Positions 15,478 to 18,247 of a stretch of DNA of 59,499 nucleotides are shown in pieces. Source of the DNA: a virus (taxonomy: Duplodnaviria > Heunggongvirae > Uroviricota > Caudoviricetes); IMG/VR virus record IMGVR_UViG_2874945390_000008. One strand, given 5' to 3'. Below the pieces are notes generated by a model. It made no database searches, was not told the DNA's origin, and worked only from the letters and a program-made list of their open reading frames with translations. A program made the translations under genes and the position numbers. How positions within the stretch are numbered: position 1 is the stretch's first letter; the number at the start of each line of letters is the position of its first letter.

Positions 15478-17556
15478 TTACCCCGGTATTTGTTGCATTC
15501 CGGCGAGTTGTGCCAGTATGTCGGAACCTGGTTTTTGTTGAACGTCGAGCCTGATTACCTGAGAAGTATTATTTGGTGAATATACGTTTCCCCCGTTCAT
15601 TGCCAGCGCCCGCATCACATCATCGCCACTTACTGCACGAGCAGCGTCCCCATTTTCATGGTTAATAATGCCCTGAATTAGCTTTCTCATTATCTCAAAA
15701 TTAGAACCATCGATTTTCTCCTTAACACCTAATCCGGTGTACTGAGAGAGATAGCTTTTATAGGACGATGTGTTATTTCCATCAGATGAAGGGGCATAAA
15801 TATCAATAATCTGATCAATCGTATTTTTGCCGCGTTTCAGGTATAGCATTACCTGCCGATCTAAGGCAGCAATGCCTTCCAGCATCGTCGGGAAGCTGGC
15901 AAAACGGGCATTTGGCCCCGATTCCAAGGTAGCCCCTTTTTGTCCTGCGAAATTAAGATTTCCGGGATTGTTATTCCTGATCCCTCTGGATAAATATGCA
16001 GATCTGTTTACTTGATTTGAAAATCCCTGCAATCCTCCAGGCCAGACCTTACCCGGATTGTTTTTTTGCCACTCCTGCACTTCGTTAAAATAATCAAAGT
16101 TGAAACGCCCCTCCAGCCCTTTCATTTCCTCACTGGTGGTAGGTGTGTCATTTGTAGGAATAGCCAATCCAGCTACTGTTCCGGCTGTAGCCCCAAGAAG
16201 ACTTCCACCAACAACACGGGCGGCAACTCCGGTCGTTGTGGCTGCCACAGCACCAACTCTCGATGGTCCAGCAAGTACTGCGGCCCCAAAAAGCCAGGGA
16301 TGTTCAACCGCAAAACCAACAAACCCGCTAAGTGCCTTAACAACCTTTGCAACATTTTCGGCAAAATTATTCAGGTCGTTATTAAAATCCGGGCCATTTA
16401 CATACTTACCAAGTTTATCCAGACCTGTTTCAACATCAGTCAAAATTCTTTTAAAGTTCTCACCGTTAAGGAAATTTAGACCAGCATTCTTTACACCATT
16501 AGATATTCTAATTAGCTGTACAGAGTTACCCGACATTGCCCCCTGAAATCCGCTGGTAAGTTGATCCCAGTTATTTTCTAAGTTGCTGGTAAGATTCTGA
16601 TACTGGCTTGTATGTCCAGAGGTGAGCAACGAGTCATTCTGAGAAGCTCGCGATAAAAACTCTTTGTTGAGTTCAGGTATTTTGTCCTGATATTTGACTA
16701 ACTGGTTAGCAATACCAAAATTTACCCATCCAAGGCCACGACCTCTGAGCATGCTCTGAGTAAGTCCGGTTCACTCATACTCCTTTGCAAGAGCAGCAAC
16801 TCTTTCTAACAATACAGGAAGATTTTCTGCTGCCCCTTTTTTAGGATTTATCCCTAATCCAATTAGCCCGTTGTAGGCAGGATGCTGAGTGTCATTTTGC
16901 GCGGCTGCCAGTGTATTGAGCAAATTACCAACACCGGAAAAATAAGGCGAATAAGTGCTTTCTGCCGCCTTTAACTCTCCTGGAGTTGCCTGCAATTCAT
17001 CAGCATTTTTCTGTTTCTCTACAACATTACGAGCCATCATGCCAAAGCCAAACGGCCCGGCAACGCCCATAACCGCAAGTTTTGTCCCCCACGATACGGT
17101 GGTTTTAAACAGGTTGTTTAATCTCGAAGTGGTCGTCCGTAGCGTAGAATTGATCTGCTTGTAAGTTTTCAGCGTCTGTTTGGCGTTTTTCCCCAGCCCG
17201 CTGAGGTACTTATCAAACATCGTTTCGCCGCGACCTTTATAGTTGCTCACCAGCGAATCAGGTGTTTTCCCGCTGCCAACAAAGCGCCATTTTTCATCCC
17301 TTAAACGTCCATCAGTGGAAGCAGCCAGAACTGGCGCGGGTGAAGATGGTTTCCTAGGAGCCTGATTGGCTTCTCCGCCTGTGGTTGTCTGCCAAGAGCC
17401 ACCTCCCGGACCGGTATTTGAAGGTATTTTAAGCGGCGTACCGGCAGGGCCAATCATCAGTCCGTTGCGATACTTTTCAAATATCGCCTCAAGCCGCCTG
17501 AGGTGTTCTTCATTAACATCCAGCGTCAGAACTGGCATCTGGTTACCAGCCATCAC
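15478..17556 (-). pseudogene. Tail tape measure protein interrupted by an in-frame TGA
   Basis: ORFs 16771..17556 and 15478..16752 are in the same frame, separated only by TGA (rc of 16771..16773) and 6 sense codons; Gly/Ala-rich and Asn-rich segments typical of tape measure proteins. Confidence 0.55.
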
Positions 17557-17617
17557 AATACTCCTGCGGGATTTTTGAATTTGAGCAGCTCACGAAACTG
17601 AGCTGCTGTTTTTACAT

Positions 17618-18247
17618 TTAGGCCGGAATCTGCACAGATGTCTCTGAATCCGGCTCCGGCTGAGTAGTCGAGGATGTCGCTGATGACGTGTTCGCCGTCG
17701 CGACAGAACTGGCGGCTGATTTCAATGTCGGCAATGAAGCGATCCATTCCGTAAGATTCAATAACGAGCATTGAGTGCTCCATACTCCATTGACCACATC
17801 CATAGTCCCCTTCGCCTGCTCCGGTGAATTTATCGACGAGACGCATGTAAAAAAAATGAGCTCACCCGCCACTTCATCCAAATCAATGATTTCACGCTCC
17901 AGCGCCATATCGAGAGGGATTGTGTCGTAGCCTTTACCCTCCACTGGGTAAACAAGGTTTGCCAGGCAAATGACCTCATTAACAAGTGTATTACGGACCC
18001 CTTTATCACCTTCCCAGATATTAGAATCACGCGAGATCCGCTCCAGCATCAAAAAAGCGATACGCGGACCCGCAACGACGCCAAGACCTTCTGAAAAAAT
18101 GGCAGAAAAAGTTTTACTCAGAATGAAGAAATGCTCTTTAAACACCTCTTTGCTGATCGGCGTGGCATGGATCCAGCCATTACCCTTTTCTGTCCGGACA
18201 GGAATAATCAGGTTTAAATTTCGCGCGATTTTCATACCAGATCCCAC
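17618..18247 (-). CDS. Tail assembly chaperone, zero-frame product (G-like)
   Basis: Lies between tube and tape measure genes; contains T TTT TTT slippery run; a -1-frame ORF 17553..17846 continues to the tape measure start. Confidence 0.5.
   Translation of the reverse strand: MGSGMKIARNLNLIIPVRTEKGNGWIHATPISKEVFKEHFFILSKTFSAIFSEGLGVVAGPRIAFLMLERISRDSNIWEGDKGVRNTLVNEVICLANLVYPVEGKGYDTIPLDMALEREIIDLDEVAGELIFFTCVSSINSPEQAKGTMDVVNGVWSTQCSLLNLTEWIASLPTLKSAASSVATANTSSATSSTTQPEPDSETSVQIPA
17849..17856 (-). other. Candidate -1 frameshift slippery site (T8 on coding strand)
   Basis: Zero-frame CTC ATT TTT TTT ACA; a -1 slip yields TAC ATG CGT... which is the 97-aa ORF frame. Confidence 0.45.

What the first reader, a model, noticed from the sequence alone, without database searches (positions are those of the whole stretch)
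17553..18247. Candidate programmed -1 frameshift in the tail assembly chaperone gene
Between the tube and tape measure genes, a 209-aa zero-frame ORF contains T TTT TTT (rc of 17849..17856). A -1 slip there continues as ...LIFF-YMRLVDKFTG... through the 97-aa ORF (17553..17846) that ends at the tape measure start. This mirrors the conserved G/GT-type (P2 E/E'-type) frameshift of tailed phages.
Basis: partly seen in the sequence, partly recalled or inferred. Interest (0 to 1): 0.5.

Follow-up and report, generated by a model that had tools for sequence, protein, structure and literature searches.

The report
Frameshifted tail chaperone gene, unannotated family
A prophage tail-assembly gene contains a conserved run of T's where ribosomes most likely slip back one base to make a second protein; this is the well-known phage "G/GT" trick, here in a phage family where nobody has annotated it and with an unusually long stretch of DNA read in two frames.

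Summary
On the minus strand, a 205-aa ORF (18235-17618) lies between the sheath and tube-like genes and the tape measure gene. It contains T_TTT_TTT (17855-17849) in the phase needed for a tandem -1 slip. The -1 frame opens 4 codons upstream, runs 98 codons and stops in TGATG with the tape measure start, predicting a 227-aa fusion.

The run is T8 in 31/31 reliable close-relative assemblies, so it is not a miscalled T9. Ten distant relatives (27-43% identity, including Klebsiella, Pantoea, Yersinia and Shewanella phages) keep TTT TTT at the same two Phe codons: 18/18 TTT in nine genes counted, against 35% elsewhere in them. They also keep a homologous -1 ORF ending at or just before the tape measure start. 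Four have no start codon in that frame.

There is one difference from lambda G/GT and P2 E/E+E'. The slip lies 62% into the gene, and the 0 frame continues 76 codons (58-100 in relatives) that are also conserved and predicted to fold. About 230 nt is therefore dual-coding, and the two products have alternative C-termini.

No record annotates this, and Pfam and NCBIfam have no model. Expression, efficiency, and ribosomal versus transcriptional slippage remain untested.

The parts
18687..20024 (-). Tail sheath gene (445 aa), two genes upstream of the chaperone gene.
   Evidence: phrog_205 'tail sheath', E = 3.5e-53.
18232..18675 (-). Tube-like gene (147 aa). The identity is inferred from position and size only. 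Its TGA stop overlaps the chaperone ATG as ATGA.
   Evidence: phrog_6566 'unknown function'. No relative among PDB sequences. It sits immediately after the sheath gene, like P2 FII.
17618..18235 (-). 0-frame chaperone ORF ('G', 205 aa plus stop). Residues 1-129 are shared with the fusion. Residues 130-205 are specific to the 0 frame.
   Evidence: phrog_11810. 673 homologous clusters at 50% identity; distant members are 180-200 aa and align through residue ~185. The AF2 model has pLDDT 88.6 and is ordered to about residue 170.
17849..17855 (-). Slippery heptamer T_TTT_TTT, inside the T8 run 17849-17856. This is the proposed site of tandem -1 slippage of two tRNA-Phe.
   Evidence: Phase read from the sequence. 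T8 in 31/31 close relatives. TTT TTT in 10/10 distant relatives, preceded by T in 9/10. Phe codons are TTT in 18/18 cases at the site against 18/52 elsewhere in nine of those genes.
17553..17849 (-). -1-frame segment ('T', 98 codons plus stop, starting with TAC = Y130 of the fusion). The 97-aa ORF listed from ATG 17846 is this segment minus its first codon.
   Evidence: phrog_14324. Homologous -1 ORFs occur in all relatives, with invariant Y130, Y162, G163, F167, L189 and R215. Diversity by codon position in the T-only part is 0.122/0.113/0.292.
17621..17848 (-). Dual-coding stretch (228 nt) read in both the 0 frame and the -1 frame.
   Evidence: Diversity at 0-frame third positions falls from 0.419 in the G-only part to 0.187 here. 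Diversity across the three phases is 0.118/0.221/0.187. Both frames are open in every relative.
15478..17553 (-). Tape measure gene with a C-terminal lytic transglycosylase region. In this window it is interrupted by an in-frame TGA at 16771-16773.
   Evidence: phrog_7694 covers both halves (1-261 and 269-675 of 675) and phrog_2276 'tape measure' also matches. Relatives carry one ORF of 640-700 aa with an SLT domain. G261 is replaced by a stop relative to L004.

Best explanation
The gene between the tube-like gene and the tape measure gene is a tail assembly chaperone that yields two proteins from one start codon.

Most ribosomes read straight through and make a 205-aa protein. At T_TTT_TTT (17855-17849), with tRNA-Phe on both UUU codons, a minority slip back one base. 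Both tRNAs re-pair perfectly. Those ribosomes continue in the -1 frame for 98 codons and stop one base into the tape measure start, giving a 227-aa fusion.

By analogy with lambda gpG/gpGT and P2 gpE/gpE+E', the shared N-terminal 129 residues would coat the tape measure protein, and the -1-encoded domain would recruit the tube protein.

Shown here: the anatomy; family-wide conservation of the slip site at nucleotide level; conservation of both downstream frames as protein.

Inferred: that the fusion is made, its ratio to the 205-aa product, and the roles of the domains.

The confidence figure is for recoding at the T run producing the fusion. Within that, I put roughly 3:1 on ribosomal slippage over transcriptional slippage.
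For: - Anatomy fits exactly. The heptamer is in phase, the -1 frame opens 4 codons before, and its TGA overlaps the tape measure ATG.
- Synteny is sheath, tube-like, this gene, tape measure, as in P2.
- T8 is invariant in 10 + 21 independent close relatives.
- Ten distant relatives (L016-L025, 27-43% identity) all have TTT TTT at the aligned FF, preceded by T in 9 of 10.
- In nine of those genes, Phe is TTT in only 18/52 codons elsewhere but in 18/18 at the site. This holds even in the Shewanella phage locus, which is 64% GC.
- UUUUUUU is under-represented in E. coli genes in all three frames (PMC4066793).
- The -1 product is a conserved protein domain with six invariant residues over 16 sequences. 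Codon-position diversity shows purifying selection in the T frame and suppressed 0-frame synonymous change in the overlap.
- Four of nine distant relatives have no ATG, GTG or TTG in the -1 frame from its opening to 30 codons past the slip, so the domain can only be reached by a frame change.
- In the Yersinia phages the -1 frame opens just before the two Phe codons (NSFFY). This pins the shift to the T run.
Against: - There is no expression data of any kind.
- U_UUU_UUU is reported as much less shift-prone in E. coli than A_AAA_AAG (PMC5009743).
- No stimulatory element was found. The downstream fold has z = +0.34 and the consensus structure is -7 kcal/mol with no real covariation.
- In this clade an ATG lies directly after the run, so independent initiation is formally possible.
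- The 0 frame does not stop soon after the slip, as it does in lambda and P2.
Confidence: 0.82

Rival explanations
1. The same fusion is made mainly by transcriptional slippage. RNA polymerase adds one extra U while copying the T8 run, and the U9 mRNAs are then translated normally into the 227-aa protein.
For: The site is a homopolymer, not a mixed heptamer. It is T8 in the query clade and in 6 of 10 distant relatives. Sharma et al. list transcriptional slippage among the possible reasons UUUUUUU runs are avoided in genes. A few per cent would be enough if the required ratio is like lambda's 30:1. U_UUU_UUU is a weak ribosomal shifter.
Against: Three distant relatives have T7 and one has T6 (G TTT TTT). 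From my own knowledge, the well-documented programmed cases use runs of about 9. What is invariant is the two in-frame Phe codons plus, usually, the preceding T, which is the requirement for tandem tRNA re-pairing. The overall run length varies.
Confidence: 0.14
2. The 97-aa ORF (17846-17553) is an ordinary separate gene, started at its own ATG, that happens to overlap the 3' end of the chaperone gene. No fusion is made.
For: An ATG lies 2 nt after the T run throughout the enterobacterial clade. Gene callers have called it as a stand-alone 97-aa protein (phrog_14324).
Against: There is no Shine-Dalgarno-like sequence within 5-12 nt upstream; the preceding 13 nt are AGCTCATTTTTTT. Distant relatives have Y-V, Y-L, Y-C or Y-G instead of Y-M after the slip, and four have no start codon at all in that frame. 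This model gives no reason for nucleotide-level conservation of TTT TTT or for the invariant Tyr that uses the last T of the run.
Confidence: 0.03
3. It is an artefact or chance. Either the run is really T9 and the gene is one continuous 227-aa ORF, or the -1 ORF is a non-coding open frame.
For: One assembly gives T9 (P0001) and three give T7, so base calling is unreliable at this run. T8 runs are no more common in the window than chance predicts.
Against: T8 is found in 31/31 reliable assemblies. Among these, L037 and L046 carry the same phages as two of the three T7 assemblies. P0002-P0004 have indels at other places, so they are noise. Distant homologues of the 205-aa protein align through its 0-frame C-terminus, which rules out a continuous 227-aa gene. 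The -1 frame is conserved as protein down to 27% identity of the partner frame.
Confidence: 0.01

Closest known systems
Phage P2 gpE / gpE+E' (programmed -1 frameshift; gene order FI sheath, FII tube, E/E', T tape measure)
   Same: It is a contractile-tailed phage with the same gene order. The slippery heptamer is T-rich and in the same phase: P2 has T_TTT_TTG and this gene has T_TTT_TTT. The shift is -1. The -1 ORF ends overlapping the tape measure start, by 8 nt in P2 and 1 nt here. Neither has an obvious stimulatory structure.
   Different: In P2 the 0 frame stops 6 codons after the heptamer and E is 91 aa. Here the 0 frame runs 76 more codons that are conserved and predicted to fold. There is no detectable sequence similarity (hhalign probability 0.1%). 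The proteins here are about twice as long.
Phage lambda gpG / gpGT (G_GGA_AAG; ratio about 30:1; G binds tape measure gpH, T binds tube gpV)
   Same: The logic is the same: two products share an N-terminus, the downstream part is in the -1 frame, the gene lies immediately upstream of the tape measure gene, and the -1 ORF overlaps its start.
   Different: Lambda is a siphovirus. The slip is 'near the 3' end of g', 5 codons before the stop. The heptamer is different. There is no sequence similarity (probability 0.2%). The division of labour between G and T is transferred here by analogy, not tested.
Programmed transcriptional realignment at homopolymer runs (e.g. Thermus dnaX and type III secretion regulators; recalled from the literature and the review PMC5009743)
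   Same: The recoding site is a pure T homopolymer inside a gene, and the outcome is an alternative C-terminus.
   Different: Runs here are T6-T8, not about 9 or more. The conserved feature is the codon phase of TTT TTT. mRNA heterogeneity could not be tested.

Membership tests
G/GT-type frameshifted tail assembly chaperone (lambda G/GT, P2 E/E+E'; Xu, Hendrix & Duda 2004 as summarised in PMC5009743) | The gene lies between the major tail or tube gene and the tape measure gene, on the same strand. | tested here: met
   Sheath (phrog_205), a 147-aa tube-like ORF, this gene, then tape measure (phrog_7694/2276), all on the minus strand. The order is the same in all relatives. The tube identity itself is inferred, not shown.
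G/GT-type frameshifted tail assembly chaperone | A second ORF in the -1 frame overlaps the first and has no need of its own start codon. | tested here: met
   The -1 frame opens 4-14 codons before the slip (69 in one relative). Four of nine distant relatives have no ATG, GTG or TTG there.
G/GT-type frameshifted tail assembly chaperone | A slippery X_XXY_YYZ heptamer lies in the 0-frame phase within the overlap and is conserved among relatives. | tested here: met
   T_TTT_TTT at 17855-17849. Found in 31/31 close relatives and 9/10 distant ones; the tenth has G_TTT_TTT. Codon-usage contrast is 18/18 against 18/52.
G/GT-type frameshifted tail assembly chaperone | [quoted passage not shown] | tested here: not met
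   The 0 frame continues 76 codons after the slip here and 58-100 in relatives, against 6 in P2 and 5 in lambda. The 0-frame continuation is conserved and predicted to fold.
G/GT-type frameshifted tail assembly chaperone | The -1 ORF ends at or overlapping the tape measure start codon. | tested here: met
   TGATG at 17555-17551. Relatives end 0-10 nt around the tape measure start; L020 ends 27 nt before the called start.
G/GT-type frameshifted tail assembly chaperone | Both products are made in a fixed ratio, both are needed for tail assembly, and both are absent from virions. | not testable with these tools
   This needs protein detection and genetics.
Known chaperone sequence and fold families (Pfam/NCBIfam tail assembly chaperone models; lambda gpG, P2 gpE) | Detectable sequence or structural homology. 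| tested here: not met
Programmed transcriptional slippage | A long A or T homopolymer (about 9 nt or more in documented bacterial cases; from my own knowledge), with no dependence on codon phase. | tested here: inconclusive
   The run is T8 here and T6-T8 in relatives. Phase cannot vary independently because FF is conserved as protein.

The most novel reading that the evidence does not exclude
This is a branch-point version of the chaperone frameshift, not a short form and an extended form. A mid-gene slip chooses between two alternative, separately selected C-terminal modules built on a common 129-aa core.

One is the 0-frame module: two helices, a strand, a helix, a disordered Ser/Thr-rich linker, and a C-terminal [I/V/L]-P-[S/H/T]-like tripeptide in most of the 31 aligned homologues. 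The other is the helical -1-frame module.

Both are encoded by a 170-300-nt dual-coding stretch that has been maintained across a large clade: 673 clusters at 50% identity, including the new family Felixviridae. If so, the 0-frame tail has its own binding partner, and the frameshift sets the ratio of two different adaptors.
Probability: 0.45. Interest if true: 0.55.

Novelty: new variant of a known kind. Interest (0 to 1): 0.4.

Why it matters
For annotation: in every public record I examined, this gene is 'hypothetical protein' and the -1 part is left as an apparent ~64-nt intergenic gap. That covers E. coli prophages from 93 complete genomes with a match and the cultured phages Rac-SA53, vB_Kpn_Chronis, PdC23, the vB_YenM phages and vB_Sb_QDWS. 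Pfam and NCBIfam have no model, and the preprint describing the Felixviridae never mentions a frameshift or a chaperone. Adding the joined CDS would name two genes in a whole phage family.

For recoding biology: it is a clean natural example of a long (about 230 nt), deeply conserved dual-coding region downstream of a pure U-run slip site with no visible stimulator. That makes it useful for asking how low-efficiency sites are tuned, and for separating ribosomal from transcriptional slippage.

It does not change the general picture, because a frameshifted chaperone is expected upstream of almost every tape measure gene.

Tried and rejected
1. A T7 puzzle. Three closer relatives (L011/L012, L013, L014) have T7. 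That would truncate the 0 frame after 5 codons (..FLHASRR*) and put the 97-aa ORF in +1, suggesting a different decoding scheme or phase variation. I rejected this. L011 and L012 are indel-ridden assemblies. L037 and L046 are better assemblies of the same phages as L013 and L011, and both have T8. All 21 loci from exact-pattern scans of metagenomes and genomes are T8.

2. Contiguous 226-227-aa 'fusion' proteins in the database (P0001-P0004). Only P0001 is fused at the run (T9). The others have indels elsewhere, so they are sequencing noise, not evidence.

3. Stimulatory RNA. A single-sequence fold and a consensus fold of 7 relatives showed nothing above background. The GGTGAG upstream is not conserved in distant relatives.

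5. The afdb50 fold library was not available.

6. The search for related loci with the family alignment failed because no stretch was conserved enough. With one distant protein in viral contigs it found nothing.

7. Structure of the fusion. A shallow alignment around P0001 gave pLDDT 62, with the T part below 50, which is uninformative beyond 'helical'.

8. A second in-phase heptamer, T_TTT_TTG at 18056-18050. It is not conserved in relatives and the -1 frame is closed there.
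Full report
**Observation**

The window's minus strand carries a contractile-tail module:
- sheath, 18687-20024 (phrog_205, E = 3.5e-53);
- a 147-aa tube-like ORF, 18232-18675;
- the ORF in question;
- a tape measure gene with a lytic transglycosylase region, then baseplate genes.

The ORF in question most likely starts at ATG 18235. That ATG overlaps the upstream stop as ATGA and is the start used in all annotated relatives. It encodes 205 aa, ending at 17618.

The sequence GAG CTC ATT TTT TTT ACA TGC contains a T8 run at 17856-17849. Its last seven bases form T_TTT_TTT in the X_XXY_YYZ phase, with codons F128 and F129.

The -1 frame has a TGA four codons before the first post-slip codon. 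It then runs 98 codons (Y-MRLVDKFTG...) to a TGA at 17555-17553, which shares its A with the tape measure ATG. The predicted fusion is 227 aa.

A T8 run is not rare in this window (10 found, 9.0 expected), so the run alone proves nothing.

**Is the run really T8?**
- Ten E. coli prophage or phage relatives at 87-99.8% nucleotide identity all have T8.
- An exact-pattern scan found 19 metagenome contigs, a Pseudescherichia MAG and the Pantoea stewartii ATCC 8199 chromosome, all T8.
- One Logan assembly gives T9 (P0001).
- Three assemblies give T7. Two of them are contradicted by better assemblies of the same phages: L037 against L013, and L046 against L011/L012.
- Three other 'fusion' proteins in the database have indels elsewhere.

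**The 0 frame after the run is real protein**

An exhaustive HMMER search with the 205-aa protein found 673 clusters at 50% identity. Members at 31-43% identity are 180-200 aa and align through query residue ~185.

In a 31-sequence alignment, F128, F129, W152 and L168 are nearly invariant. Most sequences end in an [I/V/L]-P-[S/H/T]-like tripeptide after a Ser/Thr-rich linker.

AlphaFold2 on that alignment gives mean pLDDT 88.6, with order up to about residue 170. The slip site lies inside helix 119-135. The 0 frame then adds a helix, a short strand and a helix before the disordered tail.

**The -1 frame after the run is also real protein**

I obtained DNA for ten distant relatives:
- five metagenomic contigs, L016-L020;
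- five cultured phages: Klebsiella vB_Kpn_Chronis, Pantoea PdC23, two Yersinia vB_YenM phages and Shewanella vB_Sb_QDWS.

In all ten, the aligned Phe-Phe is encoded TTT TTT. It is preceded by T in nine (runs of T7 or T8); L018 has G TTT TTT.

In all ten, the -1 frame opens shortly before the site, runs 98-156 codons after the slip, and stops within a few nucleotides of the tape measure start; in L020 it stops 27 nt before the called start.

The -1 products are homologous to the window's. An alignment of 16 reconstructed fusions has invariant Y130 (the codon that re-uses the last T), Y162, G163, F167, L189 and R215.

Four of nine distant relatives have no ATG, GTG or TTG in the -1 frame from its opening to 30 codons past the slip. 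The others read Y-V, Y-L, Y-C or Y-G where the query clade reads Y-M. The domain therefore cannot generally be made by independent initiation.

**Selection at the nucleotide level**

In nine distant genes, Phe codons away from the site are TTT in 18 of 52 cases. At the site they are TTT in 18 of 18. The naive probability is 5e-9 and is not corrected for phylogeny, although synonymous sites are saturated at this divergence. The pattern holds even in a 64% GC locus. UUUUUUU is under-represented in E. coli genes in all frames (PMC4066793).

Nucleotide diversity by codon position among 12-13 relatives:

| Region | Position 1 | Position 2 | Position 3 |
|---|---|---|---|
| G-only (0 frame) | 0.109 | 0.082 | 0.419 |
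| Overlap (0-frame phase) | 0.118 | 0.221 | 0.187 |
| T-only tail (T frame) | 0.122 | 0.113 | 0.292 |

In the overlap, no phase is free to vary, and the two more variable phases are the third positions of the T frame and the 0 frame. This is the pattern expected of genuine dual coding followed by single coding in the -1 frame.

**Mechanism**

The best-supported reading is tandem -1 slippage of two tRNA-Phe on U_UUU_UUU, with perfect re-pairing.

No stimulator was found. The downstream fold is no better than shuffles (z = +0.34). A consensus fold of seven relatives gives -7 kcal/mol with negligible covariation. Lambda and P2 also work at a few per cent, and U_UUU_UUU is a weak shifter in E. coli, which fits a low ratio.

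Transcriptional slippage that adds a U would give the same protein and cannot be excluded. The T6 and T7 runs in four relatives, together with invariance of the two in-frame codons while run length varies, argue for the ribosome.

**Comparison with known systems**

Gene order, shift direction, a T-rich heptamer in the same phase and termination overlapping the tape measure start all match P2 E/E+E' (T_TTT_TTG). The logic matches lambda G/GT.

Two things differ.
- There is no detectable homology to either, or to any curated family or solved structure. That is normal for this class. It does mean the chaperone role is inferred from architecture and position.
- The slip is 62% of the way into the gene. 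The 0 frame continues 76 codons here and 58-100 in relatives, against 6 in P2 and 5 in lambda, and that continuation is conserved and folded.

The two products therefore share a core and carry alternative C-terminal modules, not a short form and an extended form. I could not survey how unusual this is across all annotated chaperone frameshifts.

**Novelty**

All records I examined call the gene 'hypothetical protein' and leave the -1 tail as an intergenic gap. PHROGs lists the two parts as separate families of unknown function.

The distant cultured relatives belong to the family Felixviridae, ratified in 2025. The preprint describing them does not mention a frameshift or a chaperone.

I rate this a new variant of a known kind. 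The phenomenon is expected upstream of a tape measure gene. The family-wide mid-gene branch point and the long dual-coding stretch are the modestly unusual parts.

**State of this particular copy**

Compared with a 99.7% identical prophage (L004; 17 differences in 6,001 nt), the window carries three derived and probably damaging changes within 1.2 kb:
- R90C in the chaperone, at a nearly invariant Arg (17968);
- W to C at a Trp that is conserved in the enterobacterial clade and two distant relatives; it lies in the -1 domain at fusion residue 178, and the same change is G178V in the 0 frame (17703);
- G261 to stop in the tape measure gene (16773).

The slip site is intact, but this prophage is probably tail-defective. 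Experiments should use a relative.

Noticed in passing
window 16771-16773 (minus strand); ORFs 16771-17556 and 15478-16752: The tape measure gene is split by a single in-frame nonsense codon. The window has TGA where the 99.7%-identical prophage L004 and all other relatives have GGA (Gly261). The 261-aa and 424-aa ORFs are two halves of one ~691-aa protein, so this prophage is probably tail-defective.
   Followed up: yes
window 17968 and 17703 (minus strand): This copy has two further derived substitutions at conserved residues. One is R90C in the chaperone, where Arg is nearly invariant in 31 homologues. The other is W to C in the -1 domain (fusion residue 178), which is also G178V in the 0 frame. 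Together with the tape measure stop, that makes three likely damaging changes within 1.2 kb, which suggests relaxed selection.
   Followed up: partly
C-terminus of the 0-frame protein, window ~17621-17635; alignment A1: After a disordered Ser/Thr-rich linker, most of the 31 aligned homologues end in an [I/V/L]-P-[S/H/T/A]-like tripeptide (..IPA here; VPS, VPH, IPS and LPT elsewhere). This looks like a conserved C-terminal docking motif specific to the non-shifted product.
   Followed up: no
L011-L014 and P0001-P0004 versus L037, L045, L046: The T run is miscalled in several public assemblies: T7 in two indel-ridden NCBI assemblies and two Logan assemblies, and T9 in one Logan assembly. This produces spurious 134-139-aa and 227-aa proteins in protein databases, one of which (P0135, 139 aa) is a cluster representative.
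   Followed up: yes
window 35137-35447 (minus strand): A cluster of four tRNA genes: Gly-UCC, Thr-UGU, Arg-UCU and Met-CAU. There is no tRNA-Phe, so nothing suggests the region adjusts decoding at the slip site. I did not check whether this cluster belongs to the prophage.
   Followed up: no
window 18050-18056 (minus strand): A second in-phase slippery heptamer, T_TTT_TTG (identical to P2's), lies at codons 60-62 of the chaperone gene. The -1 frame is closed there and the motif is absent from several relatives, so any slip would only give an abortive product.
   Followed up: partly
L001 (PP818812.1, 'Actinobacillus phage vB_Apl-pPE4'): A phage deposited as infecting Actinobacillus pleuropneumoniae is 92.5% identical in nucleotide sequence to this E. 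coli prophage tail region over 4.7 kb. This is surprisingly close for such different hosts and may point to an E. coli prophage contaminant or a host mis-assignment.
   Followed up: no
L021 (MN013086.1, Klebsiella phage vB_Kpn_Chronis), locus 3131-3207: The annotated tape measure start (locus 3131) lies 76 nt inside the conserved -1 ORF, which ends FFNGS* at 3207. By comparison with the Yersinia phages, the true start is probably the downstream ATG near 3197.
   Followed up: no
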